Shown here piece by piece: positions 1 to 16,010 of a stretch of DNA of 64,000 bases. Origin of the DNA: an uncultured Gammaproteobacteria bacterium (lineage in GTDB: Bacteria; Patescibacteriota; Patescibacteriia; Patescibacteriales; GWC2-42-12); contig CAZGKM010000005.1 in NCBI GenBank assembly GCA_964526325.1, positions 113 to 64,112 on the forward strand, read 5' to 3'. The stretch's first letter is position 1. Each line of letters begins with the position of its first letter. A program made the translations under genes and the position numbers. A model generated the notes under the pieces. It was given only the letters and a program-made list of their open reading frames with translations, was not told where the DNA came from and did no database searches.

Positions 1-2154
1 GGCGTTAGGTAATGGACTGTCCACTCCTAGGCAAGCAGACTGGTTAGAAAAAATATTAATCATACTTGCCAAATCACGCGTAGCCCCATGCTGCGGACCT
101 TGATCGGTAGCAGGAGCAAGGGTAGTATGATTCATCGGGGTAAACTCATATACAGAAAAAGCCGCGTCATCACTAGGGGTGGAATATTTAATGCCTCCGG
201 CAAGAGATGAATAAAAATAATAATTAGTTGTTTGCCCGAATCTATTAAGGCCATCATAACCCATTAAGGTTTTATGTGCCTTAAGCGCATTATCCAAACC
301 ATTCCAAAATAAAATATAATTTGATTGGTTCCCAAATATATTTTTCTGAATATGATTATTAGCTCCGCCGTTAAGCACCATCCCATTGTATGTGTTATAA
401 AATTTATTTTCAAAAACTGCTATATTGCTACTCCCCTCATCCATATGAAGTCCTTGAAGACAATAAGAGCAGCCTCTGCCTTTATGAAAGGGTGTTCGAA
501 TTATATTATAGACAAAATTGTGGCTTATAGATGAACTTATTTGTTGCCCAAGAGTATATATTCCTCCTCCGTCATTCAGTTCTTGCATAACATCGTGTAC
601 AATATTATATCTAGTAGAATTACCCCTAGTATATGTAGATCCTGCCCCTCCTATTCCCCATGTCCAGCCAACAGAAATTCCGCTATAAGCCCCATTATAA
701 ATTAAATTATTTATGATAGTATTATAACCGCTAACAGCTGACCAAATTCCTACTCCTTCCTTATAAATCTGGCCGATATCATGAATTTTGTTATTGCTGA
801 CTGTATTTCTAATGGCTACTCCCAGTTTATACCACTCTGATGAAGGCCAACTAACAGGCTGCGAAAGAGATATTCCGTCATAATTTTTTGGCTCTTTTCC
901 TATCCTAATTCCACCAGCCCCTAAATTAAAAAATTCATTTCCATCAATAACTAAATCGCTAGAGTTACTCTCAAAAGCATATGCTCCGGTAAGGGCAACA
1001 GTGTTATTATAAAATTTAGAATTACTTGTATAGTTATAAATAATTGCCGAAGGGCTCTTGATATATATGCCGGCCTGCGAGCCTTTGTAACCATATGTAG
1101 AATTGAAACTCCAATCAGTATGAGCAAAAATTAAATTTTCAAAGGAAATATTTTTAACATAATTATTTTCTTTTCCGTTGATGTCCACTAACTGATTGAT
1201 AACCGGCGCAATAAATATACCCGCAGAAAGTTCCTGAGCTGTTCTCGGCCAATAATAAAGCGTACCGCTAGATTTGTCCAAATACCATTCCCCCGGAGAA
1301 TCCAAGCCTTCAAAAACATTATCTGCAAAATACCTGAAACTGCCGGGATAAACGTCGCTAGCGAAACTATTACCCCAGTTAGTTCCCCCCATTTGCCCGG
1401 AAACATAAACCTTGTTGCCGGAAACAGAGCTTATTTTAAATCTGTTCTGTTCCCATAAAATATTAGAAACTAGTTCAACTTCATTTAGATTCTTCCAGCT
1501 AGATAAAATATTGTCTGAAGTAAAATTAAAAGCTCTTTTATTGTCAATACTTGAAGTATTAGCTGTTCCAATATAAAAGTCGCCGGTATTAGGAGTCCTT
1601 GCTCTGGTCAATCTTTCAAAACCTAAAAACAAAGAATTAAAACTAGAATCAACCTTCATGGAATAAATATTGCCAGAATATAATTTCCAATTATTACTCA
1701 ATATTTTCCCACCGCTGATCAGGGCATTTTCATTAGGAAAAGAAGAATAAGTTATTTTAATAGTGTCTGTCCCGGAATCTCTTTCATCAAGCGAAAACGT
1801 TTCAGTTAAAAAATATGTCCCGCCCCTGAGATAAACAAACACATTTTTAGTCAGCTGATTGCTTAATTTCAGTTGCCTGATTTTATCTCGTGCCGCTGAA
1901 ATAGTTTTCACAGGACCATCGGAATTATCAGGAAGAGGACATGAATAATTACCGCTCCAAGCGTTATTTCCAAAAGGAGATACATAAATATATGTGCTTT
2001 CACCGGAAGTGCCTTCATTAAATTCTCCAACAGAGGCGCTATTGGCAGGCGATGAATATATAAATAAAAATAAACCGGCCGGTAAAATTACTACGATAAA
2101 ACCTAAAATAATAAAAAATTTTTTATTAATTATTAAATTTAACAATTTAATCAT
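1..2154 (-). CDS. Membrane-anchored/secreted right-handed parallel beta-helix repeat protein (C-terminus lies beyond window start)
   Basis: It is absent from the ORF track because no stop codon falls in the window. My reverse-complement read from the ATG at 2154..2152 stays open to base 1 (718 codons). It starts MIKLLNLIINKKFFIILGFIVVILPAGLFLFIY (signal anchor), followed by beta-helix-type turns (NNKIHDIG, GVGIWSAVSGYNTIINNLIYNGAYSGISVGW, GGGIYTLGQQ, ISHNFVYN). I spot-checked several 60-nt blocks for stops, not every codon. Confidence 0.7.
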   Translation of the reverse strand, partial: MIKLLNLIINKKFFIILGFIVVILPAGLFLFIYSSPANSASVGEFNEGTSGESTYIYVSPFGNNAWSGNYSCPLPDNSDGPVKTISAARDKIRQLKLSNQLTKNVFVYLRGGTYFLTETFSLDERDSGTDTIKITYSSFPNENALISGGKILSNNWKLYSGNIYSMKVDSSFNSLFLGFERLTRARTPNTGDFYIGTANTSSIDNKRAFNFTSDNILSSWKNLNEVELVSNILWEQNRFKISSVSGNKVYVSGQMGGTNWGNSFASDVYPGSFRYFADNVFEGLDSPGEWYLDKSSGTLYYWPRTAQELSAGIFIAPVINQLVDINGKENNYVKNISFENLIFAHTDWSFNSTYGYKGSQAGIYIKSPSAIIYNYTSNSKFYNNTVALTGAYAFESNSSDLVIDGNEFFNLGAGGIRIGKEPKNYDGISLSQPVSWPSSEWYKLGVAIRNTVSNNKIHDIGQIYKEGVGIWSAVSGYNTIINNLIYNGAYSGISVGWTWGIGGAGSTYTRGNSTRYNIVHDVMQELNDGGGIYTLGQQISSSISHNFVYNIIRTPFHKGRGCSYCLQGLHMDEGSSNIAVFENKFYNTYNGMVLNGGANNHIQKNIFGNQSNYILFWNGLDNALKAHKTLMGYDGLNRFGQTTNYYFYSSLAGGIKYSTPSDDAAFSVYEFTPMNHTTLAPATDQGPQHGATRDLASMINIFSNQSACLGVDSPLPNA

Positions 2155-2391: not shown

Positions 2392-2432
2392 AAAATCTGC
2401 CCCACTCTTCGCGAAGAGTGGGGCAGATTTTT
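2392..2432 (-). terminator. Rho-independent terminator after the 1318 aa gene
   Basis: The palindrome atctgccccactct/agagtggggcagat forms a 14 bp stem (2395..2428). It is flanked by an A-run and a T-run, and on the minus strand it is followed by UUUUGUUGUU. It lies 26 nt after the stop at 2458. Confidence 0.75.
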
Positions 2433-2457: not shown

Positions 2458-5400
2458 TTATGTCCCCGATTTACGTCCGCAACTGACATTGGAGCCTTGC
2501 GGAGCATCAGCACCGCAACTGCCGCCGGAAACGGACAGACAATCCCAAGTACCGCCGAGATTACCGCCGAAATGATTGGTGCACCACCAAATTCCGGTGC
2601 GTCCCGGAGCGGCTTCATAGACGTTGACAGTTTGTTGATCAGAATATGCGCCACCGCTGTTGACCGGAGGAGTAGTAGAAGTGCAGGCATTAGCCGCAAA
2701 ACAATTTTCTCTGCCTTCATTCTTGCCGTGTTGGCAGAAATGAATCTGGCCGCCGTTAGCCACCGTGCCGAAATAAGAGTCAGCTTTAACGTCAGTATTA
2801 TTATTTAGATACCAGCCATTCGGATCAGCTGAACAATTGTTGTCCGTAGGAGTAGTAGGATTAGTAGTAGGATTAGTAGTGGGATTAGTAGTGGGAGTAG
2901 TAGGATTAGTAGTAGGAGCAGTAGGAGTAGTAGGAGTAGGGCAGATATTAGCCGCAAAACAATTTTCTCTGCCTTCATTCTTGCCGTGTTGGCAGAAATG
3001 AATCTGGCCGCCGTTAGCCACCGTGCCGAAATAAGAGTCAGCTTTGACGTCAACCCAACGGTTGAGGTACCAATCGTTAGGATTAATTAAACAACTGCTT
3101 GGAGGAAGAGGAGTCGAAATTGGTGCGCCTTCAGGGCCCCTGTAACCATTGGCCGTGTCGCACCAAACACTGCCGGGATTCATATAAACATGAACGGCAA
3201 TTTCGCCTGAACCGGATAATTTAGCTAAATCAATATCAGCCTTCCATGTGCCACCGCCGAGGTTTGTGCCTTGATACCAGATTAAATCATCCTGGCCATT
3301 AACTTTTGTCCAGGCGGCAAAAGCAACGGTAGCGGCATTCCCTACTCCGTAGGCATAGATTGATTTAGCGCCTGATGTTCCGGTAATCTGCCAATTATCC
3401 GGACCGGCATTAGTGCATATTGGAGTCTGTATTGTCTGTGTTGTCTGTGTTGTCAGCATTGAAGTTAGAGTCGTGCATTGGCTGATGGAAAAACAATGTT
3501 TCCCTTGCCTGCTAACTTCATTTTTACCATACGTACACCAATGAATTAGCCCGCCGTTAGCGATTGTGCTGAAATAGCTGTTGGCTTTGACATCCGTATT
3601 ATGGTCAAGATACCAACCGTTAGGGTCAGCTAAGCAAGTATCAGTCGGGGTTGGAGTAGTAGATCCGCAAGCATAAGAAGCAAAACAATTTTCCCTGCCT
3701 TCATTTTTTCCATTTTCACAATAATGCTTCAAACCTCCGCTAGGAGCTTGCCCGTAATCGCTAGCCATAACATCCGGCCAACGATGCAAATACCAGGCAT
3801 TGGGATCAGCCTGACAAGAGGTTGGAATAGGAATTACGGTCGTGCCGCAACGGCCACAAGCAACATTAGAATTCAGAGGAGCATTGGCTCCGCAACTGCC
3901 GCCGGATACGCTTATGCAATCCCAAGTATTGCCTAAGTTCTTTGCGAAATGATTGGTGCACCACCATTGGCCAGTCTGGCCAGAGGCATATGAATAAACA
4001 TTGACAGTCCTGGTGTCTAAATATGGATCGCAAGATTTAACGCCAGGAACGCCAGGATTTGGATTTGACTCGCAAATATCTGCGGCAAAACAATTTTCCC
4101 TGCCTTCATTTTTGCCGTAAGGGCAATAATGGGTTATAGCGTCCACCACGCCTGCGTTCTTAATGTCAGGGTAACGGTTCAGGTACCAGGCCGATGGGTC
4201 GTTTTGGCAGGTAGAATTGCAGGTAGTGCATACGCTGTTTCCATAACACCCACCACTGCCGCCAGTAGTCGGGCCGTTCCACCAGATATCACCATAGCCC
4301 TGAGTTGCCCATTTACCGCCGGCAATATACATATAGCCGTTAGCGTCAACATCGCTGTCTATCATAAAACCGCCTGGCATTCTCTGAACTTCAGACCAAT
4401 TGGTGCCGTCTGAACTTCTAAGTAAAGCGGCATCAGTTCCATCAGCTCCGATACCGGCATAAGCATAGTTGCCGTCACTTCCCATCCAATGGGTAATATC
4501 ACGACCATTATATCTATAGACCTCAGTCAAAGTATTGTTTGACGGGTTATAGCGGTAAATAAATGCATGATTCGAGCTTGATACCGTGGACACATAAACA
4601 TTTCCTTTTAAAGTGGTGATGCCGTGGAACGACCAATCTGATAAATCATTGCTTGGAGGATTCACGGCTGTAAAATTACCATTATTGTATATATATAGTA
4701 CGCCCTTTCCGTTTTGACCGCATCCCCAATCGCAACCGTTAGTACTGGCACCGATATATACTTTGCCGTTTAGTTCGGCTAAGCGGAAAGCAGTACTTCC
4801 ATTGGGCATAGTATAGTTAGTGAAATTATTGCCGTCGCTGGAAACCACAAACGTATTTCCGCAGGCGGCGTAGAGGTTGCTATCAGTAGCCAATAAGTCT
4901 AAACAATATGGATGACTAATAGCGTGCTTAAATTGCCAGGAGCCATTACTGAATTTCCAAATACCGCCTTTATCCACTGGTCCGCTGTCACGACCATCGT
5001 GGTTGCCATGTTCAACCGTGGCATAAATGCCGCCTTTAAAATCTCTAATTCTAAAAATTGATTCGGCATTTAAAGTGGCGCAATCAGAAGATTGATTATG
5101 GCTAGAGTTAAAGGTGGTTAAGTGAGAAATATATTGATCGGCTGAACCACCTCCTTGCCAAGCCATTTTATCAGCATAGGTGCCGGTATATATTTGCCCA
5201 TTAATAAATTGGACTGACATATACCACGTTTTATCATGATGAGTAAAAATCCTAAAACTATTGGTGGGTGGCGGCAAAGCTCCTCCAACAGTAACCGTCG
5301 TATTAGCCGTGGCCGAACCGCTGGCGTTAGTGGCGGTAAGGGTATAAGTCATGGTTACCACCGGATTGACTGTTTTGGAAGTGCCGGTAACTGTGCCTAA

Positions 5401-6414
5401 GCCGCCAATGGATAATTGAGTCGCGTTAGAAACTGACCAGGAAAGCGTAGCGGTCTGGCCGGAATTAATAGTTGTGGGGCTAGCGGTAAAAGAAGTAATG
5501 ATAGGGATAGCGGTTGATGGACCATAATAATTTTTTAAAAAATTAACAGCCGCTTCTATGCTATTCCTATCAGTTGGACTTGTGCTTACGAAATGCGTGT
5601 TATTAGGCAGAACATAGACAGCCGGAATAATATATACATTGGGATTATTAAGAGTTCCGTCAGCGAATAAATAATCTGCGGCGCTCTTTATATCAGAAAC
5701 ATAATCAGTAACTCCGGTCTTCGGTGGCAATAAAAGATAACATTTTTTATTTAAACTCAATACATACTTACAAGCTTCATATAATTGCAAGCTGAACCAA
5801 ATAGAGGTACCGGGGTTCGCTTCAAACACCGCGCCCGAAACATTTGGATTCGCCAATGCCGCAATTACCTGATTGCGGCGTTGATCGTATGAGTTGAAAC
5901 TTCGCGTCAAGACGATAACCCTTGATCCTATCGATCCAAATCCGGGAACTACGTGCGAAGCATACCCGTTAATCTGCGTATCGTTCAAAGGCGTCGCCAA
6001 GCCGTCTTCAATGTAAAATATAGCGCCGTCAACCATTCTATTTATACTCCTAGATACGAAATCGACTTCATTCGTAAGGCCGGGATTATCCTCTGAAATG
6101 GCGTATCTATCGGCATTAAGATTTTTCAATGTAGTCGGCCAATCTACCCCTGCGCTATTTATAGTTATCGCCGAAACGCCATCGGCTGCAAATTTTGACG
6201 CTTGAGCGGCTTCACTGGCGTTAATTTGGTTAATATCAACTAATATTTGAAATCTGCGCGTAACCGAAGTCTCGCTGTTTATATTTATATCCGTAGCGCT
6301 TTTAGCCGGCGAGGAAGGACTTAATAAAATAATAAAAGCAACAAACATAGTTGTTAACAATAAAAAGAGAGAAATTAATTTGTTGCTGAAAACAAGTTTG
6401 GATAATTTTACCAT
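2458..6414 (-). CDS. 1318 aa secreted multidomain surface protein in the PilY1 position of the minor-pilin operon
   Basis: It has an ATG start and an N-terminal signal anchor (LISLFLLLTTMFVAFIILL). Next come an unassigned domain of about 300 aa and an Ig-like segment (TINSGQTATLSWSV). A propeller region carries Asp-box motifs (SSDGNNFT, SSDGTNWSEV). A GBS-Bsp-like repeat follows (WTKVNGQDDLIWYQG...IAVHVYM). The rest holds five Cys-bracketed modules (C.ADPN.WYL....DV......HFCQHGKNEGRENCF), two WWCTNHF...CGR modules and a PT-rich linker. Confidence 0.9.
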   Translation of the reverse strand: MVKLSKLVFSNKLISLFLLLTTMFVAFIILLSPSSPAKSATDININSETSVTRRFQILVDINQINASEAAQASKFAADGVSAITINSAGVDWPTTLKNLNADRYAISEDNPGLTNEVDFVSRSINRMVDGAIFYIEDGLATPLNDTQINGYASHVVPGFGSIGSRVIVLTRSFNSYDQRRNQVIAALANPNVSGAVFEANPGTSIWFSLQLYEACKYVLSLNKKCYLLLPPKTGVTDYVSDIKSAADYLFADGTLNNPNVYIIPAVYVLPNNTHFVSTSPTDRNSIEAAVNFLKNYYGPSTAIPIITSFTASPTTINSGQTATLSWSVSNATQLSIGGLGTVTGTSKTVNPVVTMTYTLTATNASGSATANTTVTVGGALPPPTNSFRIFTHHDKTWYMSVQFINGQIYTGTYADKMAWQGGGSADQYISHLTTFNSSHNQSSDCATLNAESIFRIRDFKGGIYATVEHGNHDGRDSGPVDKGGIWKFSNGSWQFKHAISHPYCLDLLATDSNLYAACGNTFVVSSDGNNFTNYTMPNGSTAFRLAELNGKVYIGASTNGCDWGCGQNGKGVLYIYNNGNFTAVNPPSNDLSDWSFHGITTLKGNVYVSTVSSSNHAFIYRYNPSNNTLTEVYRYNGRDITHWMGSDGNYAYAGIGADGTDAALLRSSDGTNWSEVQRMPGGFMIDSDVDANGYMYIAGGKWATQGYGDIWWNGPTTGGSGGCYGNSVCTTCNSTCQNDPSAWYLNRYPDIKNAGVVDAITHYCPYGKNEGRENCFAADICESNPNPGVPGVKSCDPYLDTRTVNVYSYASGQTGQWWCTNHFAKNLGNTWDCISVSGGSCGANAPLNSNVACGRCGTTVIPIPTSCQADPNAWYLHRWPDVMASDYGQAPSGGLKHYCENGKNEGRENCFASYACGSTTPTPTDTCLADPNGWYLDHNTDVKANSYFSTIANGGLIHWCTYGKNEVSRQGKHCFSISQCTTLTSMLTTQTTQTIQTPICTNAGPDNWQITGTSGAKSIYAYGVGNAATVAFAAWTKVNGQDDLIWYQGTNLGGGTWKADIDLAKLSGSGEIAVHVYMNPGSVWCDTANGYRGPEGAPISTPLPPSSCLINPNDWYLNRWVDVKADSYFGTVANGGQIHFCQHGKNEGRENCFAANICPTPTTPTAPTTNPTTPTTNPTTNPTTNPTTPTDNNCSADPNGWYLNNNTDVKADSYFGTVANGGQIHFCQHGKNEGRENCFAANACTSTTPPVNSGGAYSDQQTVNVYEAAPGRTGIWWCTNHFGGNLGGTWDCLSVSGGSCGADAPQGSNVSCGRKSGT
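2689..3045. repeat. Pair of 99-bp perfect direct repeats (2689..2787 and 2947..3045) inside the 1318 aa gene
   Basis: The sequence attagccgcaaaacaattttctctgccttcattcttgccgtgttggcagaaatgaatctggccgccgttagccaccgtgccgaaataagagtcagcttt occurs twice. The copies are offset by 258 nt (86 codons) and flank the PT linker. The other three copies of the same protein module are much more diverged at DNA level. Confidence 0.9.
2846..2940. repeat. In-frame 12-nt-periodic tandem repeat encoding the PT-rich linker
   Basis: The sequence gtaggagtagtaggattagtagtaggattagtagtgggattagtagtgggagtagtagg... encodes TTNPTTPTTNPTTNPTTNPTTPT on the minus strand. Confidence 0.85.
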
Positions 6415-6640
6415 AAAATTTTACTGTTAATTTAATTAAATAGATAATCTAATTATAACATAAATATTAAAAAATATAAAAAAGTAATATAAATATTGGC
6501 ATCTAAATTACTGCTGGAAATATTTGCCGCATTATTGTTTAAAATAATTTAATAAAAACTGCCAAAACACTACAACAAACGGCGGTTTTGACTGACAATT
6601 TTTCTAACTGCTTATTTGATATAAAAAATCACTTACGTTC

Positions 6641-9064
6641 TTAAGGCACGTCCACCGTGTTGGTTGAGGGAAATTGGCGAATACTCCCCGGCCAAATTAT
6701 ACGAACCGCGCCGCCGGCGCCATTGGCATCGCCGGATACAAACGATCCGTCAACACCGCCGCCGGCACCGCCATAAGCGCCGCCTATATTTCCTGAAACG
6801 CCCGCTACTCCGCCGTTAGCCCCGCCGGAACCGCCGCCAGCCGCTCCGCTATTATACACCCCTCCGGATCCTGATGACCCGCCGCCCAATAAGCCAACGC
6901 CTCCGCCGTCGCCAGCATAAACAGTGCCTCCTCCGCCACCGCCTGCGCCACCGCCTGCGCCCGCCGATCCATTGCCGTTGTTTACGCCATTACCGCCAAC
7001 TCCGCCGTTACCTGAATAACCTGATGCGCCTCCGCCTCCGGCGCCATAATTTGAACTGCCGGTTCCACCGGCGCCGCCGGTATAGCCTCCGATTGTGCCG
7101 CCAAAAGGACCGGATCCAATAGCTGTGCCGGTTCCACCGGCGCCGCCGGTAACTGCCGCAGCTGCGGCTGCGCCGCCACCGCCTGCCTGGACTAAAACAT
7201 TCGCCCCTCTTGATAACCGGCTATAACCGCCTGGTGTTTGCACATTATTCGCGGTTGAAACTCCTCCGGCGCCGACTACTACGGTAATTGTTTCGCCGGG
7301 AGTTACCGTCAAATCGTTAATATACCTAAGACCGCCGCCGCCGCCGCCGCCATTATACGTTCCGCCTTGACTTCCGCCGCCGCCGCCGCCGACCAAGACC
7401 GCGCTTATTCTTGTCACACCGGCAGGGACAACCCAAGAATACGTGCCGGATGTAGGATAAGCAACTTGGGACGCCGTCACAAAACTTACGGAAATAGTAT
7501 GAGGACCCTGAATATTATTAAAAGAATAAGAGCTTATAGATCCCTGGTTAGCGCCATCAACTAAAACCTGATTAACAATATAACCGCTGTTAGCCGGAAA
7601 AGTGAACAATTGATTACTGCCATGATCAACCAAAACAGCGCCAGAAGGAGATATGGAACCACCGGAACCGGCTGAAGCCGTGATAATATAAGTATTGATA
7701 GCAAAATTAACCGCAATAGTATGAGTATCCTGAACATCGTAAAAAGTATAAGAAGCCGGCGTGCCTACAGGCGCGCCGTCAATCAAAACCGAGGAAATAT
7801 GATAGCCGGTAGTTGTCGCTATGTTAAACGCTTGATCGTTTCCATAATTAACCGTAACAACGCCCGAGGGAGAAATAGAGCCGCCTGAACCGGCCGAAGC
7901 AGTAATATTATAAGTACTGCTGACAAAATTCGCCGTGACGCTTATATTCGCCGTGACGCTGGTATCGGTTCTTGGATTTATCGTTGAACCGTCGCTCCAA
8001 TTTAAAAAAATGAATCCAACCGACGGATCGGCGGTAACGGCTGTTCCGGAACCGAGATAGTTTACTATTTGCGGCGAGGTGCCGATGATGCTGCCGTTCG
8101 GCCCCGCGGTATAAATTAAATTATAAATATTACTGACAAAATTCGCCGTGACGCTTATATCATCGGTAACGTTGGTATCGGTTCTCGGATTTGCGGTTGA
8201 ACCGTCGCTCCAATTCAAAAAAATATAATCAACGATTGGATTGGCGGTAACGGCCGTTCCGTCTTGAAGGTAATATACTGTTTGCGGCGAAGTGCCGCTA
8301 ATACTGCCATTCGGCCCCGCGGTATAGGTTAAAGTGCGAGTATCAGGCATAAAAGAGGCAAAAATAGTATGATCGGCCTGAACATTATCAAATGGATATA
8401 AGAATATAGGGCCTTGATCTATATCGTCAACTATTACCGATGAAATAATGTAGCCGAAATCAGCGCTTATATTAAATGACTGGTTATCCCCCTGATTAAC
8501 CGCGACGGTGCCTGAGGGAGAAATAGAACCGCCTGAGCCGGCCGAGGCGAAAATAGCATAAATTATTGACGGATTTTCCACGCAAGCGCCGAACACGCAT
8601 GACAGGCCTGAACTACAGATACCGCAGCTGCCGCCGCAGCCGTCGCTGCCGCAGACTTTACCGGAACAATTAGGCGTACAGCTTGAAGCTCCAATAAGAT
8701 AAGTAGCCTCTACCGACCTTCTCGCGCCGCCGTAAGAGCCGATTGATTGAAAAGTAACTTTAGGCGAAGATGTAGCGTAATTTACCGAATAAGCGCTGTT
8801 ATTGCCAAGATTTGGCAGGTTAAAAACTCCGGTCGTGTCTGCGGCAGGTAAAAGATAACTATTTTTTCTAACTTCAAATAACGCCTTCTCCAAACCGGCT
8901 TCGGAAGCAAAATAAGCCAAACTTGAATAACCGGTTAAACGATTCATTTTTATGCCAGCTAAAACCAACTCAGCCGCGGCTAAAGTAATAATTAAAATAC
9001 CCGATAAAATAAACAGTGTTAAAAGTAAAATTACGCCTCTATTGTTTTTTATATATTTATTCAT
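6641..9064 (-). CDS. 807 aa PilX/GspK-like anchored giant minor pilin-like protein with 5 InlB-B-repeat-type (Flg_new-like) domains and a glycine-rich C-terminal domain
   Basis: The N-terminus NNRGVILLLTLFILSGILIITLAAAELVL matches the PilX_N type. A Cys-rich knot follows (CTPNCSGKVCGSDGCGGSCGICSSGLSCVFGAC). There are five repeats of about 71-75 aa (Y.LTYTAGPNGSISG...FLNWSDGST.NPRTDT.V....SVTANF). The C-terminus reads YSWVVPAGVTRISAVLVGGGGGG and continues into about 230 aa of Gly-rich sequence. Its start overlaps the upstream gene's stop by 8 nt. Confidence 0.85.
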   Translation of the reverse strand: MNKYIKNNRGVILLLTLFILSGILIITLAAAELVLAGIKMNRLTGYSSLAYFASEAGLEKALFEVRKNSYLLPAADTTGVFNLPNLGNNSAYSVNYATSSPKVTFQSIGSYGGARRSVEATYLIGASSCTPNCSGKVCGSDGCGGSCGICSSGLSCVFGACVENPSIIYAIFASAGSGGSISPSGTVAVNQGDNQSFNISADFGYIISSVIVDDIDQGPIFLYPFDNVQADHTIFASFMPDTRTLTYTAGPNGSISGTSPQTVYYLQDGTAVTANPIVDYIFLNWSDGSTANPRTDTNVTDDISVTANFVSNIYNLIYTAGPNGSIIGTSPQIVNYLGSGTAVTADPSVGFIFLNWSDGSTINPRTDTSVTANISVTANFVSSTYNITASAGSGGSISPSGVVTVNYGNDQAFNIATTTGYHISSVLIDGAPVGTPASYTFYDVQDTHTIAVNFAINTYIITASAGSGGSISPSGAVLVDHGSNQLFTFPANSGYIVNQVLVDGANQGSISSYSFNNIQGPHTISVSFVTASQVAYPTSGTYSWVVPAGVTRISAVLVGGGGGGSQGGTYNGGGGGGGLRYINDLTVTPGETITVVVGAGGVSTANNVQTPGGYSRLSRGANVLVQAGGGGAAAAAAVTGGAGGTGTAIGSGPFGGTIGGYTGGAGGTGSSNYGAGGGGASGYSGNGGVGGNGVNNGNGSAGAGGGAGGGGGGTVYAGDGGGVGLLGGGSSGSGGVYNSGAAGGGSGGANGGVAGVSGNIGGAYGGAGGGVDGSFVSGDANGAGGAVRIIWPGSIRQFPSTNTVDVP
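7920..8345. repeat. Two tandem 213-bp units (71 codons) encoding adjacent InlB-B-type repeats
   Basis: The sequence ctgacaaaattcgccgtgacgcttatat recurs at 7920 and 8133, and the flanking sequence is highly similar. This corresponds to protein repeats 2 and 3. Confidence 0.75.
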
Positions 9065-9650
9065 AACTTCTTGACGAAATCGTCATTTGAATTTTCATTT
9101 TCTGTTCATTTATCGCTTGCCCAATCGCTTTAGCGTCCATCATCATGGTAACGTACGGCTGTTTGCTATGAAAAGCGGAAATCAAATCATCATCAATATA
9201 AAATTTCAAATTGCTAACTTCGATTTTCGCCGGAGTAACGAAATCAACAATAGCGTCGGCGCCGACGCTAACCATCAATTTAAGGCGGTTATCTTCCAAA
9301 TAATAAGTAACGCACTCGCCGTCTTTATTTTTAAAATACAGCTCTTCGCCGCCGTAGGCTGTATTAAAAATTTTATAGATAGCTGCCGGATCGCACTCTT
9401 TATCGCTAACTTGTGCCATCCTTATTTCTTTGCTCATTTTTTCCATGGCATATCTTAAATTTTCTTGCATGTTTTGCGCGTTAATAGCGTTTCTTTGCCC
9501 GTCAACCACCATTTTAAATATTTGAGTTGCGGACAGCATTAAAACGGAAAAAATAGTTACTGAAACTATTAATTCCATTAAACTTACGCCTCTGGTTTGT
9601 TTTAATTTTTTTAAAAATAAATTCACCCCGTTAGAGATTTTATTAGCCAT
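9057..9650 (-). CDS. Type IV minor pilin (PilW/GspJ-like position), prepilin-type N-terminal domain
   Basis: The leader MANKISNGVNLFLKKLKQTRG is followed by VSLMELIVSVTIFSVLMLSA, giving G|xxxxE spacing typical of prepilin cleavage. The gene is coupled to the downstream gene through an ATGAATAA overlap. Confidence 0.8.
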   Translation of the reverse strand: MANKISNGVNLFLKKLKQTRGVSLMELIVSVTIFSVLMLSATQIFKMVVDGQRNAINAQNMQENLRYAMEKMSKEIRMAQVSDKECDPAAIYKIFNTAYGGEELYFKNKDGECVTYYLEDNRLKLMVSVGADAIVDFVTPAKIEVSNLKFYIDDDLISAFHSKQPYVTMMMDAKAIGQAINEQKMKIQMTISSRSYE

Positions 9651-9701
9651 ACATTATTTATTACAATTCCCCGCTTTCAATCTGACATATTTCTAACGGG
9701 G
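9626..9701 (-). promoter_or_regulatory. Leader inverted repeat spanning the start codon of the 9057..9650 gene (CCCCGTTAGA / TCTAACGGGG)
   Basis: Bases 9626..9635 (codons 5-8) are perfectly complementary to 9692..9701 in the 5' UTR. An alternative partner, ccccg, lies at 9669..9673. The start codon at 9650..9648 sits inside the loop. Confidence 0.5.
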
Positions 9702-9719
9702 TTCACATCAATAATTATT

Positions 9720-9785
9720 ATCAAATAAAATTTTATGGCCGTAGCCCCGCATTTGCGGGGCGCTAAGCATTAAATTTTATTTGAT
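9720..9785 (-). repeat. Structured intergenic element, copy 1 (long AU stem plus GC apical hairpin)
   Basis: The outer arms atcaaataaaatttta.../...taaattttatttgat pair perfectly for 14 bp. They enclose gccccgc-attt-gcggggc, a 7 bp stem. The element is homologous to 19512..19572. Confidence 0.7.
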
Positions 9786-9836
9786 ACAATATAATTTTGG
9801 AAATATTAAAACCTTTTTTAAAAAGGTTTTAAAGTC

Positions 9837-10370
9837 TTACCTCCAGTTATATAAATAAGTTTCACCGGTATAATTATGATTTTGCGTTCCGTCTTTCCAG
9901 CGGATAGCGCATTTTACATCTAAATAATCAACATTATCAACCACAGTAATCAAGCGATAAAAATTTGTCGGCGTATTACCGCTTGATTCGTGAGTATAAA
10001 AACCATTGCTATCAATATACAATCTGGCGCTGGCGTCATCTATGGAATTCGCGGACATATTAATGCTCACTAAACCTCTATAATCTACGGTATAAGTGCC
10101 ATCGCCTACAATATTTTGATTCCAAACATTTCCCGGGGTTAACCAATTCAAATCCCTGATATTTCTTACAAGTTCCAGGCCCTCGCCGGCTAAACCCGAA
10201 GCGATTAAAACATTTTTATTTATATACTGAGCTTCTACGTTTTGAATAACTAAAGACATAACGCCAACCATACCCATGGCGATTATCATCATCGCAACCA
10301 CAACCTCCAAAATGCTTATGCCCGAATTGTCGGAAATTTTTTTTATTTTCACCCCGTTAGATATTTTCAT
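9837..10370 (-). CDS. Type IV minor pilin (PilV/GspI-like)
   Basis: The leader MKISNGVKIKKISDNSG is followed by ISILEVVVAMMIIAMGMVGVMSLV, a prepilin-type hydrophobic N-terminus with Glu at +5. Confidence 0.8.
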   Translation of the reverse strand: MKISNGVKIKKISDNSGISILEVVVAMMIIAMGMVGVMSLVIQNVEAQYINKNVLIASGLAGEGLELVRNIRDLNWLTPGNVWNQNIVGDGTYTVDYRGLVSINMSANSIDDASARLYIDSNGFYTHESSGNTPTNFYRLITVVDNVDYLDVKCAIRWKDGTQNHNYTGETYLYNWR

Positions 10371-10413
10371 GATTTTATCAATTCGCCCCGTTAAAAATCA
10401 ATATCTAACGGGG
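10352..10413 (-). promoter_or_regulatory. Leader inverted repeat spanning the start codon of the 9837..10370 gene, with an alternative hairpin
   Basis: The sequence ccccgttagatat (10352..10364, codons 3-7) is perfectly complementary over 13 bp to atatctaacgggg (10401..10413). The same right arm can instead pair with ccccgtta at 10386..10393 (8 bp). The element is paralogous to the 9626..9701 leader. Confidence 0.55.
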
Positions 10414-10419
10414 TTAATT

Positions 10420-10968
10420 TTAATCCGTATCAATTAAGCCAAAAAAATTAACGAAAACAGTAGCCGTTGAATTATTGACGTTTTCTTTTAATATAATTCT
10501 GGCGGTCGTATTATTAAAGCCGTTAATGTAAGTGGCCGGATCGGGCGGAAAAAATACAATATCTACCGGACTGGCCGGACTTAAAAAATTTATAGTTATT
10601 CCGGCTGGTAAATTTTTAACCTCTACTGCCTCGCCAGCGTCATAAGCCTGATTGCCGTCAGGAAAATTTTTATCGGCAAAAATTATATAATGAGTCGGGT
10701 CGGACAAGCTGAAATGAACGCCCCAGCCGCCGCCAGGAATATTAACGCCGTCGTAAGTTTTTGAGCCAAGACTATAATTTTGCGCTATTCTAATGTCGGA
10801 TACCAGTTTCTGTTTTACCATGCCAAGTTCCGAGCGTTTATTTGTACCGTGATAATTAACCATAAAAAGACCGCTCATCAATGTAATTATAAAAATACTA
10901 ACCGTCAACTCGATTAGGGTAAAGCCGGAAAAATCCGTTATTTTATTATTTTTAATTTTATTCGGCAT
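10420..10968 (-). CDS. Type IV minor pilin (FimT/FimU/GspH-like)
   Basis: The leader MPNKIKNNKITDFSG is followed by FTLIELTVSIFIITLMSGLF, the canonical GFTLIE prepilin motif. It is the first gene of the minor-pilin block. Confidence 0.85.
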   Translation of the reverse strand: MPNKIKNNKITDFSGFTLIELTVSIFIITLMSGLFMVNYHGTNKRSELGMVKQKLVSDIRIAQNYSLGSKTYDGVNIPGGGWGVHFSLSDPTHYIIFADKNFPDGNQAYDAGEAVEVKNLPAGITINFLSPASPVDIVFFPPDPATYINGFNNTTARIILKENVNNSTATVFVNFFGLIDTD

Positions 10969-11220: not shown

Positions 11221-12627
11221 CTAGTCCGGCTTAACTTCTTTCCAGATCGGCAATTGAGCGTTGATATTAATTATTTTTGAAGTTGAAACATAATAACCGT
11301 CAGCGTCAGTCACTTTTAAAGTTATCGTGAAATTACCGGCCGAAGTAAAAATTATAATAGGCGTCGTGGTGGCGGGATCGTTAATATTAGCGCCCGGAGC
11401 GGTCCATTCATACGTACATTGGTCATTTGTACAATCAATTACGGTGCTCGGCGCCGAACTTAGATAAACTTTACTTTCATTGGTAAATTTAACTTCTTCG
11501 TCCTGGCTTGGATTGCTCGGGAAAAAAGAAAAGTCGGCTATGGGCATTTCATGTTTATAGGTTGTAAAAGTTAAAGGCAATCCATCGTCGGCTTCTATGG
11601 GAGTATCTTGAGGGTTATTATACTGCGTGAAAGACGAATACTTATGAGAAATATTATCATCACTAACCTTAACCCACCAATAATATGATGTATCATAATT
11701 TAATGACATGTCTGATGAATTGATAAAAAATTCATTAGTATTGTTGTTGTCAATTTTACATTTAACCGGCAAACTAACCGGATTATTAAAATCAAAGCAC
11801 TCGCCGGAATCAAAAAGAGGATCGGCCGGATCGCTGTCATCATCAACGATTATTTGATAAGAGTACTGGCTCTGCCCGGCGTCCGAATCGCTAAAAGTCC
11901 AACCAAGCTTAGCTCTTAAAGCGTCATTATTGTCTCTGGCATCTTTAAAGCTCCAATTAGGCGCGGTCATGTCGGTAACGCTGGGCGGACGATTAATATC
12001 GGCGGCAACTTTATAATTTGAAACTCCGCAAGAACTATCGTTAGAGCAATTAAAACTTAGCCAGCCGATACCTGATTCATTGTCGTTGGCATTCCATGCC
12101 CAGCCCAAAAAACTATTGGTCGCCTGATCTATGGTTACGCCGTTTGCCCAAGCATCATTAAATTTTATCCAGCCGTTATCTCCCATAGCAATAATTTTTC
12201 CCCAGCCATAAACCTTGCTATCCGTCCAATTATAACAAGCCGTACAGCTGTTAGAAGCCGAGCAGCTGCCGGCCGTTGCGCAATTGGCGTTAAAAACATA
12301 ATCCGGTGCGCCGATCTCATTAAAACTAATCCAGCCGACATTCGAACTCCAAGCATAACCGCTAAAATGGCCGGTAATTAAATCTACATTTACGCCATAA
12401 TTACTGTTTACGCAAGGCGGACTATCGTTAGTACAGTTAAAACTTACCCAGCCGATATTTGAGCTCCAAGCCCAGCCGTTAATATTATGACTGGCGCTGG
12501 CGCTGCTGATTTTAATGTTTTGCCTAAATCCAAACTCGTAATAAACAATGGCCAAGCTTAAGCCAAAAGCTATAATAAACATTAAAATTGTGATAAGCCA
12601 AGTTTTTGCCTTAAAATAATCTTTCAT
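11221..12627 (-). CDS. Membrane-anchored GW-repeat / PKD-domain protein
   Basis: It has an N-terminal TM segment (WLITILMFIIAFGLSLAIVYY). The motif G[WY]AWS.N.GW[IVL]SFN occurs four times. The C-terminal segment is PKD-like (PIADFSFFPSNPSQDEEVKFTN...FTITLKVTDADGY). Confidence 0.8.
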   Translation of the reverse strand: MKDYFKAKTWLITILMFIIAFGLSLAIVYYEFGFRQNIKISSASASHNINGWAWSSNIGWVSFNCTNDSPPCVNSNYGVNVDLITGHFSGYAWSSNVGWISFNEIGAPDYVFNANCATAGSCSASNSCTACYNWTDSKVYGWGKIIAMGDNGWIKFNDAWANGVTIDQATNSFLGWAWNANDNESGIGWLSFNCSNDSSCGVSNYKVAADINRPPSVTDMTAPNWSFKDARDNNDALRAKLGWTFSDSDAGQSQYSYQIIVDDDSDPADPLFDSGECFDFNNPVSLPVKCKIDNNNTNEFFINSSDMSLNYDTSYYWWVKVSDDNISHKYSSFTQYNNPQDTPIEADDGLPLTFTTYKHEMPIADFSFFPSNPSQDEEVKFTNESKVYLSSAPSTVIDCTNDQCTYEWTAPGANINDPATTTPIIIFTSAGNFTITLKVTDADGYYVSTSKIININAQLPIWKEVKPD

Positions 12628-12636
12628 AAAATTATA

Positions 12637-13428
12637 TTAAAATATATTTAAATACCAGTTTAAAATCTGTTCTTGCCAAAATAAGCTAATTACGGTGCCA
12701 ACGGACAAAAAAACTCCAAGTGGCACTTCGGAACCCCATTGCTTTTTACGCCCAAAAATTAAACCAACGCCGATAATAGAACCAATAAAATATGAAATAA
12801 TTATAGCGACTAATACGCCCGGCCAGCCTAAAGACAAACCGATTAAAAGGCCCAGCCTAATATCGCCGCCGCCGATCCATTTACCTTTAGAGATTACGAA
12901 CTGAAAGAGGAAAAAGCTACCTCCTATTATACCAGAAATTAGTAAATTCCACAAATTAAAACCTAAGATTAAATTAATAATCAGCATAACTAAACAGGCG
13001 GGAAAAGTAACTATGTCTAAAATTAAATACCAGCGCAAATCATAAATAAAAACCACAATCATAACACAAATTAAAAACCAATCGCGCAAAACTTTTATTG
13101 AGAATTGAAAATTGAGAATTGCTTGAAAATTGTTTAAAAATTGAAAATTAATGACAAAGGCAACAACAAATAAAATGCCGGTTATTAACTCAATCGCCGG
13201 ATACTGCCACGATATTGGCTTTTTACATTGCCGGCACTTTCCCTTAAGCATTATAAAACTTAAAATCGGAATATTATCGTACCAAAAAATTTGTTTTTTG
13301 CATTTCGGGCAATAAGAACGGTTAAATAAGCCTTCTTTTTTATGCAAACGCCAAATCAGACAATTTAAAAATGAACCGATGATCAGACCGAAGATGAAAA
13401 CAAAAGTTAAAATTATTTGTGTAGACAT
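12637..13428 (-). CDS. pilD: Prepilin peptidase / N-methyltransferase PilD (A24 family)
   Basis: Motifs include IIGSFLNCLIWRL, the zinc-type pairs CPKC...CRQC and YPAIELITGILF. I place the start at ATG 13428 (MSTQIILTF). The track's longer start at 13470 runs into an intergenic repeat. Confidence 0.9.
   Translation of the reverse strand: MSTQIILTFVFIFGLIIGSFLNCLIWRLHKKEGLFNRSYCPKCKKQIFWYDNIPILSFIMLKGKCRQCKKPISWQYPAIELITGILFVVAFVINFQFLNNFQAILNFQFSIKVLRDWFLICVMIVVFIYDLRWYLILDIVTFPACLVMLIINLILGFNLWNLLISGIIGGSFFLFQFVISKGKWIGGGDIRLGLLIGLSLGWPGVLVAIIISYFIGSIIGVGLIFGRKKQWGSEVPLGVFLSVGTVISLFWQEQILNWYLNIF
13097..13155. repeat. GAAAATTGAAAATT-family repeat embedded in frame in pilD
   Basis: The sequence attgagaattgaaaattgagaattgcttgaaaattgtttaaaaattgaaaatt encodes INFQFLNNFQAILNFQFSI. 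The same repeat type is otherwise intergenic, at about 43905..43925, 43985..44008 and 48085..48200. Confidence 0.65.
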
Positions 13429-13440
13429 AAAGAAATAATT

Positions 13441-13566
13441 ACAAATGACTAATGTCAAATGACAAATCAAGCAAAAAATCCTAATGTCAAAAAATTAATT
13501 AATCTGCCGGCAGGCAGGCAGGTTTTTTATTTAGTCATTTGGCATTGATTTGACATTCGTCATTGG
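13441..13566. repeat. Composite palindromic TGACAAATG/CATTTGTCA-family element with a central CTGCCGGCAGGCAGG palindrome
   Basis: The left half (acaaatgactaatgtcaaatgacaaat) and right half (tagtcatttggcattgatttgacattcgtcatt) are mutually inverted. The family recurs at 61802..61908 and inside recG. Confidence 0.7.
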
Positions 13567-15890: not shown

Positions 15891-15980
15891 ATAACGCTTA
15901 ATTATGTCTATATTATAACTCAAATAAACCGCCGAGAACAGTATAAATAAATTTCTTCTCCTATTTTTGGCGCTACATAT

Positions 15981-16010
15981 AAAAGAGCCCCGCAAATGCG
16001 GGGCTCTTTT
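15981..16010 (-). terminator. Rho-independent terminator of the major pilin gene
   Basis: The sequence aaaagagccccgcaaatgcggggctctttt has a 9-10 bp GC-rich stem flanked by an A-run and a U-run. It lies 39 nt after the pilin stop. Confidence 0.85.

What the first reader, a model, noticed from the sequence alone, without database searches (positions are those of the whole stretch)
2458..10968. Minor-pilin operon keeps the fimU-pilV-pilW-pilX-pilY1 order, but the last two members have grown into giant adhesins
In transcription order, the first three genes are a GFTLIE FimT/U-like pilin, a PilV-like pilin and a PilW-like pilin. Next is an 807 aa protein with a PilX_N-type anchor followed by five InlB-B-type repeats and a Gly-rich domain. 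Last is a 1318 aa non-pilin protein containing an Asp-box beta-propeller, which sits in the position occupied by the beta-propeller adhesin PilY1 in classical T4aP operons. This points to a pilus-tip complex carrying a large, modular, probably glycan- or host-binding payload.
Basis: partly seen in the sequence, partly recalled or inferred. Interest (0 to 1): 0.55.

Follow-up and report, generated by a model that had tools for sequence, protein, structure and literature searches.

The report
Pilus-tip pilin with swappable payload
In this ultra-small (Patescibacteria) bacterium the fourth minor pilin of the type IV pilus carries a 680-residue adhesin-like extension that its relatives lack or replace, while the neighbouring 1318-residue protein looks like an unrelated secreted protein inserted next to the operon, not a PilY1-type tip adhesin.

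Summary
All five ORFs exist exactly as described. They end a complete Patescibacteria type IV pilus cluster on the minus strand. Three small pilins have G|xxxxE signals. The fourth, an 807-aa protein, has a GspK/PilX-style anchor without Glu5.

Its first 125 aa are 55-76% identical to about 70 stand-alone 104-143-aa proteins that hold the same fourth slot in relatives. The remaining 680 aa are a graft: an 8-Cys linker, five InlB-B repeats and a Gly-rich domain. At least eight related loci carry other payloads, seven behind the same linker, in lineages scattered across the tree. So the 807-aa protein is a modular tip pilin with a variable payload, which is a known kind.

The PilY1 reading of the 1318-aa protein is not supported. 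In 42 of 43 related loci ligA follows pilX directly, with no gene between. The protein has no full-length homologue. Its propeller is central and Kelch-like, not Asp-box or PilY1-type. Its TIM-barrel domain occurs elsewhere outside pilus contexts. It has its own extended -10 promoter-like site and terminator, and another secreted beta-helix protein lies downstream.

Most likely it is an independent secreted glycan- or wall-binding protein in a lineage-specific insertion.

The parts
10420..10968 (-). Minor pilin 1 (182 aa), GspH/FimT/FimU-like; leader ...DFSG|FTLIELTVS
   Evidence: ORF. N_methyl hit. Sub-threshold GspH hit (E 2.7e-7, aa 14-84). Orthologues at 57-77% identity occupy the same slot in all related loci.
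9837..10370 (-). Minor pilin 2 (177 aa as listed; the true start is probably the GTG at codon 7), PilV/GspI-like; ...NSG|ISILEVVV
   Evidence: Sub-threshold PilV (TIGR02523) and GspI hits. Orthologue alignments begin at aa 7.
9057..9650 (-). Minor pilin 3 (197 aa as listed; the true start is probably the GTG at codon 9), PilW/GspJ/PpdB-like; ...TRG|VSLMELIV
   Evidence: Sub-threshold PRK10557 and GspJ hits. The L001 orthologue carries a weak PpdB Pfam hit.
8690..9064 (-). Pilin module of the 807-aa protein (aa 1-125): a PilX/GspK-type minor pilin, NNRG|VILLLTLFIL, with no Glu at +5
   Evidence: About 70 homologues of 104-143 aa at 55-76% identity. Some are named PilX by JGI. They are always the fourth pilin gene. 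Conserved G10, L13, L14, T16 and L17. No PilX_N Pfam hit.
8555..8689 (-). Eight-cysteine linker (aa 126-170; Cys at 129, 133, 138, 143, 147, 150, 156, 161): C.P.C.GK.CG.DGCGG.CG.C
   Evidence: The same motif follows the pilin module in L009, L011, L013, L015, L028, L032 and (slightly altered) L035, ahead of different payloads.
7460..8554 (-). Five InlB-B-type (Flg_new_2) Ig-like repeats, aa 171-535, of two subtypes
   Evidence: Pfam PF18998, E 5e-12. Repeat register. DNA repeat families D4 and D6.
6641..7459 (-). Gly-rich C-terminal domain (aa 536-807, 37.5% Gly), plus the stop codon
   Evidence: Pfam Gly_rich_2, E 3e-9. Residues 372-805 match phage family phrog_4474 end to end (E 5e-42) and phrog_863 'tail' (E 9e-10). 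Composition.
6415..6640 (-). AT-rich intergenic gap (226 nt, 21.7% GC) with a promoter-like site at 6480-6452: TTTATA, 17-nt spacer, TATAAT preceded by TG
   Evidence: No significant hairpin or terminator in the gap (z = -0.1).
2458..6414 (-). 1318-aa secreted or anchored mosaic protein.
- aa 1-40: signal/anchor.
- aa ~52-298: TIM-barrel-like domain.
- aa ~305-378: Ig-like domain.
- aa ~388-712: Kelch-like 7-bladed propeller.
- aa 736-1318: Cys-rich region with five 'WYL...GKNEGR' modules, two 'TVNVY' modules, a GBS_Bsp-like repeat (aa 1028-1079) and a PT linker.
2392..2431 (-). Strong intrinsic-terminator-like hairpin (18-bp stem, 8 GC pairs) just after the 1318-aa gene
1..2154 (-). Next gene downstream; it runs off the window, with at least 718 aa. 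It encodes a signal/anchor and a beta-helix-like protein with a GH141 insertion-domain hit. Its leader-end motif PANSAS is shared at the DNA level with the 1318-aa gene.
   Evidence: Repeat family D8.
11221..12627 (-). Conserved 468-aa non-pilin protein (TM anchor, GWxWSSNxGWxSFN repeats, Ig and PKD) between PilD and the minor pilins. It is the constant large partner of the operon.
   Evidence: Present in related loci at 40-69% identity. It has grown to 1903 aa in L004.
12637..13470 (-). Prepilin peptidase PilD
   Evidence: Pfam A24_N_bact (E 9e-33) and Peptidase_A24.

Best explanation
This region ends a Patescibacteria (monoderm-type) type IV pilus cluster: PilM-N-O, PilB, response regulator, PilT, PilC, major pilin, Wzy_C/TPR protein, PilD, a 468-aa protein, then four minor pilins.

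THE FOUR MINOR PILINS
They are the GspH/I/J/K-type core set, which primes assembly and ends up at the filament tip. This role is inferred from established knowledge of T4P and T2SS minor pilins.

THE 807-aa PROTEIN
The fourth pilin, the Glu5-less K/PilX type, is in most relatives a bare 125-aa protein. Here it is a modular pilin. An eight-cysteine linker, a stalk of five InlB-B Ig-like repeats and a Gly-rich head with phage-protein relatives are grafted onto its C-terminus. Because the K-type subunit caps the filament, the payload would be displayed at the pilus tip, where it would set what the pilus binds (inferred). Relatives carry other payloads behind the same linker, for example a ConA-like lectin plus Lcl_C, or InlB-B repeats plus a DUF1566-like end. 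Binding specificity therefore turns over by gain, loss or exchange of the 3' part of pilX.

THE 1318-aa GENE
It is not part of this machine. Together with the beta-helix/GH141-like gene downstream, it belongs to a lineage-specific insertion at the otherwise conserved pilX-ligA junction. It has its own promoter-like site and terminator. It encodes a Sec-exported mosaic: TIM barrel, Ig, Kelch-like propeller, then Cys-rich and Bsp-like wall-binding-type repeats. Most likely it is an independent secreted or surface glycan- or cell-wall-binding, possibly hydrolytic, protein (inferred).
For: CLUSTER AND PILIN SIGNALS
- Cluster composition.
- Pilin signals.

THE 807-aa PROTEIN IS A GRAFTED PILIN
- About 70 stand-alone homologues of aa 1-125 hold the fourth pilin slot.
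- Payload domains.
- Extended PilX-like ORFs recur in eight loci: L009 189-198 aa, L011 675 aa, L013 339 aa, L015 767 aa, L024 333 aa, L028 361 aa, L032 at least 202 aa, L035 660 aa. Their domains differ, and seven of the eight share the Cys linker.
- They are scattered in at least six places of the pilin-module tree, next to short sisters.

PRECEDENT
- Modular pilins are widespread, including in CPR phyla (PMC8179133).
- Saccharibacteria PilX1 and PilX2 carry C-terminal jelly-roll and propeller domains, and PilX2 is needed for host binding (PMC11623550).

THE 1318-aa GENE IS SEPARATE
- ligA follows pilX with a gap of -25 to 466 nt in 15 of 16 genome loci and 27 of 27 metagenome loci with readable downstream sequence.
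- The close relative L002 is collinear only up to PilX aa 122.
- There is no full-length homologue among 5.8 billion proteins.
- The propeller segment has only 21 relatives among 1.8 billion representatives, none with a PilY1 annotation.
- There is no PF05567 or BNR hit. The nearest structures are Kelch-like.
- TIM-barrel homologues lie in glycosyltransferase, cohesin or other contexts, or are fused to PG_binding and Big_2 domains.
- A promoter-like site and a strong terminator flank the gene.
- A second secreted gene downstream shares its leader motif.
Against: - The pilin fold of the 125-aa module was not modelled. No curated pilin HMM reaches its threshold for any of the four genes.
- No terminator was found between the 807-aa and 1318-aa genes, so read-through co-transcription remains possible.
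- Adjacency on the same strand is compatible with a lineage-specific accessory role.
- GC3 gives no sign of foreign origin for the 1318-aa gene.
- What lies beyond the window start is unknown. In particular, it is not known whether ligA follows.
- Payload function (binding, and to what) is entirely inferred.
Confidence: 0.72

Rival explanations
1. One reading: the 1318-aa protein is a functional PilY1 analogue. On this view it is a non-pilin, Sec-exported propeller adhesin that docks on the minor-pilin tip complex, acquired or expanded in this lineage.
For: - It lies on the same strand, immediately after the fourth minor pilin, with no detectable terminator between them.
- It has an N-terminal signal/anchor and is not a pilin.
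- It contains a confidently predicted 7-bladed propeller, the general fold class of the PilY1 C-terminal domain.
- Its many putative binding modules would suit an adhesin.
Against: - No gene occupies this slot in 42 of 43 related loci; ligA follows pilX.
- There is no PF05567/IPR008707 signature, even at E<=5.
- The propeller is central rather than C-terminal, and is Kelch-like by Foldseek and by profile.
- No EF-hand-like D.D.DG..D motif is present.
- The protein's modules occur elsewhere without pilus genes.
- It has its own extended -10 promoter-like site.
- It has no full-length homologue anywhere.
Confidence: 0.1
2. The 807-aa ORF is not displayed on pili. On this view the extension is a recent, non-functional fusion or an assembly artefact joining pilX to an unrelated surface-protein gene.
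For: - Most relatives have a 125-aa protein.
- L009 has only a 189-aa form ending soon after the Cys linker, which could be a decayed version.
- The window's own contig could not be found in the public collection for an independent check.
Against: - The reading frame is open for 807 codons, with intact repeats.
- The same linker-plus-payload arrangement recurs independently in seven other contigs from different samples and assemblers, each time in frame and each time followed by ligA where sequence is available.
- The gene overlaps the preceding pilin gene by 8 nt, as in relatives.
Confidence: 0.05
3. The four small genes form a T2SS-like or Com-like pseudopilus tip rather than a tip for an adhesive, motile pilus. 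On this view the payload serves DNA uptake or secretion.
For: - The best NCBIfam hits are to T2SS pseudopilins GspH, GspI and GspJ, and to ComGD and ComGE.
- CPR bacteria are thought to take up DNA through pili (own knowledge).
Against: - A PilT retraction ATPase homologue, PilM-N-O and a T4a-type major pilin are present in the same cluster.
- The payload domains are Ig-like repeats and lectin-type modules, typical of adhesion rather than DNA binding.
- The two functions do not exclude each other.
Confidence: 0.1

Closest known systems
Modular type IV pilins (Streptococcus sanguinis PilB with a vWA module and PilC with a lectin module; survey in Raynaud et al. 2021, PMC8179133; Shahin et al. 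2023, PMC9934059)
   Same: A small N-terminal pilin module carries one or more C-terminal functional modules that are not specific to pili. The organism has a monoderm-type envelope without a secretin, so a bulky tip is possible. The survey already lists CPR examples, such as an 860-aa Falkowbacteria pilin.
   Different: - Here the carrier is the Glu5-less, fourth-position (GspK/PilX-type) pilin.
- The junction is a conserved eight-Cys linker.
- The module combination (InlB-B x5 plus Gly_rich_2) differs.
- The same pilin family exists mostly in a bare 125-aa form, with payloads varying between close relatives.
Saccharibacteria (Nanosynbacter lyticus TM7x) PilX1 and PilX2 (PMC11623550)
   Same: These are Patescibacteria minor pilins called PilX. 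They have non-canonical signal peptides and large C-terminal accessory domains: a beta-jelly roll and a 7-bladed RCC1 propeller. They are proposed tip adhesins, and PilX2 is required for host binding.
   Different: - The phylum-level lineage differs (Parcubacteria/Falkowbacteria-like relatives).
- The payload domains differ.
- Homology between the pilin modules was not tested here.
GspK (T2SS) and Pseudomonas aeruginosa PilX, the K-type core minor pilin
   Same: It occupies the fourth position after H-, I- and J-type genes. It lacks Glu5. It is expected to cap the filament.
   Different: - GspK's extra alpha-domain is inserted into the pilin fold rather than appended.
- Neither Pfam PilX_N nor an NCBIfam GspK model reaches significance here.
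PilC/PilY1 tip adhesins (C-terminal IPR008707/PF05567 propeller)
   Same: The 1318-aa protein is a large, non-pilin, signal-peptide-bearing protein with a 7-bladed propeller, encoded next to minor pilin genes.
   Different: - It has no PilY1 domain signature.
- Its propeller is central and Kelch-like.
- No Ca-site motif is present.
- It is not conserved with the operon in relatives.
CofB (ETEC) and TcpB (V. cholerae), T4b minor pilins
   Same: These are single large tip minor pilins, with beta-repeat and beta-sandwich/lectin domains linked to the pilin module. They initiate assembly and mediate binding (as discussed in PMC8179133).
   Different: They belong to T4b systems with one minor pilin rather than an H-I-J-K set. 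No sequence similarity was detected.

Membership tests
Core minor pilin set GspH/I/J/K (= FimU/PilV/PilW/PilX) | Class III signal peptide: a Gly at -1 and Glu at +5 in the H, I and J members, processed by a prepilin peptidase encoded nearby | tested here: met
   G|FTLIE, G|ISILE and G|VSLME. N_methyl hits and PilD at 12637-13470.
Core minor pilin set GspH/I/J/K (= FimU/PilV/PilW/PilX) | The fourth (K/PilX) member lacks Glu5 | tested here: met
   RG|VILLLTL. Leu at +5 is nearly invariant in 25 family members.
Core minor pilin set GspH/I/J/K (= FimU/PilV/PilW/PilX) | A match to curated family models at or above their cut-offs | tested here: not met
   All NCBIfam hits are far below their cut-offs and cover only the N-terminal helix. 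PilX_N hits 1 of 25 members at E 0.22. There is no PDB sequence match.
Core minor pilin set GspH/I/J/K (= FimU/PilV/PilW/PilX) | Four genes in conserved order, linked to the T4P machinery | tested here: met
   The same four-gene block follows PilD and the 468-aa gene in related loci. PilB, PilC, PilT and PilM are in the window.
Core minor pilin set GspH/I/J/K (= FimU/PilV/PilW/PilX) | A pilin fold and a heteromeric tip complex | not tested
No multimer tool was available.
Modular pilin (sensu Raynaud et al. 2021) | An N-terminal pilin module plus at least one extra domain that is not specific to T4P biology | tested here: met
   The pilin module matches stand-alone 125-aa pilins in relatives. 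The extra domains are Flg_new_2 and Gly_rich_2.
Modular pilin (sensu Raynaud et al. 2021) | Incorporation into the filament and a direct role for the module in a pilus function | not testable with these tools
   This needs pilus purification and binding assays.
PilC/PilY1 | A C-terminal PilC/PilY1 beta-propeller domain (IPR008707/PF05567) | tested here: not met
   No Pfam hit at E<=0.01 on the whole protein or at E<=5 on the propeller segment. The propeller spans aa ~388-712 of 1318. Foldseek's top 50 hits are Kelch, LGI1-EPTP and WD40. A profile search of PDB gives only Kelch.
PilC/PilY1 | A calcium-binding EF-hand-like site in the propeller | tested here: not met
   No D.[DN].[DN]G..[DE] motif occurs in the protein. 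This was a motif search only.
PilC/PilY1 | Conserved genetic linkage with the minor pilin operon | tested here: not met
   ligA follows pilX in 15 of 16 genome loci and 27 of 27 metagenome loci. No 1318-like sequence occurs in any locus.
PilC/PilY1 | A non-pilin protein with a Sec-type signal peptide | tested here: met
   The N-terminus is MVKLSKLVFSNKLISLFLLLTTMFVAFIILLSPSSPAKSA, with no G|xxxxE motif. No signal-peptide predictor was run.
BNR/Asp-box (sialidase-type) beta-propeller | Repeated S-x-D-x-G-x-T-W Asp-box motifs and a BNR family match | tested here: not met
   No strict motif and no BNR Pfam hit. Only two shortened SSDGxN[FW] motifs occur, at about aa 526 and 667 (sequence).

The most novel reading that the evidence does not exclude
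The conserved eight-cysteine linker at the end of this PilX-like pilin acts as a standard socket. Behind it, whole tip payloads are exchanged among Parcubacteria-like lineages by recombination. These payloads include lectins, Ig-repeat stalks and a Gly-rich head shared with phage proteins. The result would be a cassette system for retargeting pilus-mediated attachment. The adjacent insertion of secreted proteins (the 1318-aa mosaic and the beta-helix protein, which share leader sequences and leave a leader relic) would then be part of the same variable, host-interaction island, or a reservoir for it.
Probability: 0.15. Interest if true: 0.6.

Novelty: new member of a known kind. Interest (0 to 1): 0.36.

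Why it matters
Patescibacteria are thought to live attached to host cells, and type IV pili are their best candidate for finding and holding a host. A tip pilin whose payload differs between close relatives would be a direct genomic read-out of attachment specificity, and a handle for predicting host range.

The result also corrects an annotation trap. A large propeller protein sitting after the minor pilins is not necessarily a PilY1. In this clade the operon has no PilY1 slot downstream. The constant large non-pilin partner, the 468-aa family, lies upstream.

Tried and rejected
- Full-length homology search with the 1318-aa protein was swamped by its Ig-like domain, with hits covering only about 6%. 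I therefore searched its domains separately.
- Exact look-up of the window's own contig, to see what lies beyond position 1, found nothing on record.
- tblastn of the Gly-rich payload against phage genomes gave no match, probably because of low-complexity masking. PHROG profiles did match.
- GC and GC3 were checked as a test for foreign origin of the payload and of the 1318-aa gene. GC3 of 0.40 lies within the genome's range, so the higher GC reflects amino-acid composition. I dropped this argument.
- RNA folding of the 226-nt gap found no terminator (z = -0.1), so co-transcription can be neither shown nor excluded.
- Pfam at lax thresholds found nothing useful on the PilX-like module, the TIM-barrel domain or the propeller.
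- Foldseek on the TIM-barrel model gave only generic barrels with TM below 0.5, so no enzyme family can be named.
- PDB sequence and profile searches returned nothing for the whole 807-aa, 1318-aa and 468-aa proteins or for the PilX-module and TIM-barrel family profiles.
- Pfam found no domains in the payloads of L013, L024, L028, L032 and L035.
- 'Asp-box propeller' was rejected in favour of 'Kelch-like propeller'.
Full report
OBSERVATION

They close a complete type IV pilus cluster, all on the same strand:
- PilM, 23956-24987
- PilN- and PilO-like genes
- PilB, 19625-21364
- a response regulator
- PilT, 17992-19026
- PilC, 16752-17957
- a major pilin, 16049-16462
- a Wzy_C/TPR protein, 13587-15995
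- the prepilin peptidase PilD, 12637-13470
- a 468-aa membrane-anchored protein, 11221-12627

Relatives found by protein search are labelled Patescibacteria, Parcubacteria or Falkowbacteria.

THE FOUR PILINS

The first three have canonical class III signals: SG|FTLIE, SG|ISILE and RG|VSLME. They hit the N_methyl motif. Their only other family hits are weak, far below the curated cut-offs and confined to the N-terminal helix. Those hits nevertheless fall in the order GspH, then PilV/GspI, then GspJ/PpdB.

The 807-aa protein starts MNKYIKNNRG|VILLLTLFIL. It has a conserved Gly and Leu instead of Glu at +5, which is the hallmark of GspK/PilX-type subunits (established knowledge). Pfam PilX_N itself does not match.

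The H-I-J-K (FimU-PilV-PilW-PilX) order is therefore supported by signal-peptide features and gene order, not by formal family membership.

THE 807-aa PROTEIN IS A GRAFTED PILIN

Searching aa 1-166 returned about 70 proteins of 104-143 aa that are 55-76% identical to aa 1-125 and end there. JGI calls a few of them PilX. In every contig examined they are the fourth gene after three small pilin genes.

The rest of the window's protein comprises:
- an eight-cysteine linker, aa 129-161
- five ~72-aa InlB-B-type repeats (Flg_new_2; register; DNA repeat families D4 and D6)
- a domain that is 37.5% glycine (Gly_rich_2)

Residues 372-805 match phage protein family phrog_4474 almost end to end (E 5e-42) and the tail-category family phrog_863.

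I collected 16 genome loci and 33 metagenome loci holding this pilin family; some are duplicates of one another. Eight contain extended versions: L009 (189 aa as called; 198 in the longest ORF), L011 (675 aa), L013 (339), L015 (767), L024 (333), L028 (361), L032 (at least 202, open-ended) and L035 (660). Their payloads differ:
- L011 has Cys-rich repeats, a ConA-like Laminin_G_3 lectin and an Lcl_C domain.
- L015 has four to five InlB-B repeats and a DUF1566-like end.
- The others have no Pfam domain.

All but L024 share the C.P.C.GK.CG.DGCGG.CG.C linker directly after the pilin module. In L035 the motif is slightly altered. On a tree of the pilin modules, the extended forms sit in at least six separate places next to short sisters.

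THE 1318-aa PROTEIN IS NOT A PilY1 EQUIVALENT

Synteny:
- The close relative L002 is 70-87% identical across PilT, PilC, pilin, Wzy, PilD, the 468-aa protein and all four minor pilins. It is collinear up to PilX residue 122, after which ligA starts at once.
- ligA follows pilX with a gap of -25 to 466 nt in 15 of 16 genome loci. The exception is L011, a short contig with 541 nt left and no ligA.
- ligA also follows in all 27 metagenome loci with readable downstream sequence.
- No locus contains anything similar to the 1318-aa protein or to the gene downstream of it.

Homology and architecture:
- The protein has no full-length homologue among 5.8 billion proteins.
- After a signal/anchor comes a (beta/alpha)8 barrel at aa ~52-298 (pLDDT 83, pTM 0.83), with only generic TIM-barrel neighbours.
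- The barrel's homologues are stand-alone 243-460-aa proteins or modules fused to PG_binding_1 or Big_2. They are encoded next to glycosyltransferases, cohesin proteins or unrelated genes.
- Next is an Ig-like domain, then a roughly 7-bladed propeller at aa ~388-712 (pLDDT 79, pTM 0.83).
- The tail is Cys-rich (32 Cys). It has five 'C..DPN.WYL...GKNEGR' modules, two 'TVNVY' modules, a GBS_Bsp-like repeat and a PT linker.

The propeller:
- It has only 21 relatives at E<=1e-3 among 1.8 billion representatives. None has a pilus-related Pfam domain.
- It gives no PF05567 or BNR hit, even at E<=5.
- It lacks strict Asp-box motifs and an EF-hand-like Ca site.
- Its nearest structures, by Foldseek and by profile search, are Kelch, LGI1-EPTP and WD40 propellers.
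- PilC/PilY1 proteins are defined by a C-terminal IPR008707 propeller (PMC8179133). Here the propeller is central and of another type.

Transcription signals:
- The 226-nt gap (21.7% GC) holds an extended -10 promoter-like site, TG-n-TATAAT, at 6480-6452.
- It has no significant hairpin.
- A strong terminator hairpin follows the gene at 2431-2392.

Downstream gene: another gene at 1-2154 runs off the window. It encodes a signal/anchor and a beta-helix protein with a GH141 insertion-domain hit. Its leader-end coding sequence is repeated in the 1318-aa gene and as a relic in the intergenic region (D8).

The simplest reading is a lineage-specific insertion of secreted-protein genes at the conserved pilX-ligA junction. 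Composition does not mark the insertion as foreign.

MECHANISM

Shown:
- the gene order
- the signal-peptide types
- that the pilin module exists as a stand-alone protein in relatives
- the payload domains and their turnover
- the absence of a fifth slot in relatives

Inferred from established T4P and T2SS knowledge:
- The four pilins prime assembly and form the tip, with the Glu5-less subunit on top.
- The C-terminal graft is therefore displayed at the tip.
- A monoderm-type envelope without a secretin allows a bulky tip, as argued for S. sanguinis in PMC8179133.

Also inferred:
- The Ig-repeat stalk and Gly-rich head bind a surface ligand, probably on a host cell.
- The 1318-aa protein acts independently as a secreted or surface glycan- or wall-binding, possibly hydrolytic, protein.

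COMPARISON WITH WHAT IS KNOWN

Modular pilins are an established and widespread kind. The published survey already includes CPR examples (PMC8179133). In Saccharibacteria, PilX1 and PilX2 carry C-terminal jelly-roll and propeller domains, and PilX2 is needed for host binding (PMC11623550).

The 807-aa protein is a new member of that kind, with a new module combination. The modest additions are:
- It belongs to a family that is usually a bare 125-aa pilin.
- Different payloads sit behind one conserved Cys-rich linker in scattered lineages.

VERDICT

The PilX half is correct and ordinary to interesting. The PilY1 half is not supported. Interest is 0.36.

Noticed in passing
window 9615-9712 and 10340-10425 (minus strand); also L004 12925-13018 and 13347-13444: A repeated ~75-95-nt palindromic element sits just upstream of the PilW-like and PilV-like genes.
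- Its arms are ACCCCGTTAGA(a/t)(a/g)T(t/a) and the reverse complement, forming a 15-bp stem. Eleven pairs are invariant and two show compensatory changes.
- The 50-60-nt loop holds a second partner (A/G)CGGGG, a TATAAT-like box and an ATG.
- The 3' arm ends exactly at a GTG that is probably the true start codon.
- This produces a spurious or shared N-terminal 'ISNGV' peptide in four unrelated genes.
- The core motif CCCCGTTAG occurs 4 times in the window against 0.3 expected by chance, and the element matches no Rfam family.
- It is absent from the same positions in the close relative L002.
It could be a regulatory hairpin, an operator or a small mobile palindrome.
   Followed up: partly
window 11221-12627 (minus strand): A 468-aa non-pilin protein has a TM anchor, four GWxWSSNxGWxSFN repeats, an Ig-like domain and a PKD domain. 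It is conserved between PilD and the minor pilins in most related loci that cover that position (40-69% identity). In L004 it has expanded to 1903 aa, with WD40_RLD, Cadherin, He_PIG and Flg_new_2 domains. It is the constant large partner of this operon and a better candidate than the 1318-aa protein for a PilY1-like role.
   Followed up: partly
window 1-2154 (minus strand; runs off the window start): This gene encodes a signal/anchor plus a beta-helix-like protein of at least 718 aa, with a GH141 insertion-domain hit (E 1e-5, just below the cut-off). The ORF listing misses it because it is open-ended. Its leader-end sequence (..SSPANSAS..) is shared at the DNA level with the 1318-aa gene (6289-6329) and with a relic in the intergenic region (2248-2288).
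   Followed up: partly
window 13587-15995 (minus strand): An 802-aa Wzy_C (O-antigen ligase-like) plus TPR protein lies between the major pilin and PilD. It is conserved at 73% identity in L002. It is possibly a pilin O-glycosyltransferase of the TfpO/PilO type.
   Followed up: no
window 2666-3052 and 2822-2965: Inside the 1318-aa gene, two 129-nt segments encoding WYL modules 4 and 5 are 95% identical, which points to a recent internal duplication. They flank a 9-12-nt tandem array encoding a (T/N)PTT linker, a likely length-variable region (D2, D3, D5).
   Followed up: no
window 6644-7950 (807-aa protein, aa 372-805): The last two InlB-B repeats plus the Gly-rich domain match phage family phrog_4474 (unknown function) over nearly its full length (E 5e-42), and the tail-category family phrog_863. 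The pilus payload therefore shares an architecture with phage proteins. tblastn against GenBank phages found nothing.
   Followed up: partly
L012, L015, L020 (GTDB genome contigs CAZHZE010000002.1, CAYSKV010000008.1, CAZLKB010000004.1): These records are titled 'uncultured Gammaproteobacteria bacterium'. Yet they carry the same Patescibacteria-type pilus operon followed by ligA, with 55-79% identity to the window's proteins. The organism labels look wrong.
   Followed up: no
window 53284-60681 (minus strand): A 2465-aa ORF has only a marginal CBM_4_9 hit. An 820-aa ORF and a 216-aa ORF downstream of it have no Pfam match. This is another block of large uncharacterised, probably surface, proteins.
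   Followed up: no
window 9745-9829 (minus strand, between the PilV-like and PilW-like genes): Two terminator-like hairpins lie inside the presumed minor-pilin operon: AAAACCTTTTTAAAAAAGGTTTT directly after the PilV-like stop codon, and GCGCCCCGCAAATGCGGGGC. The four pilin genes may therefore not form one simple transcript.
   Followed up: no
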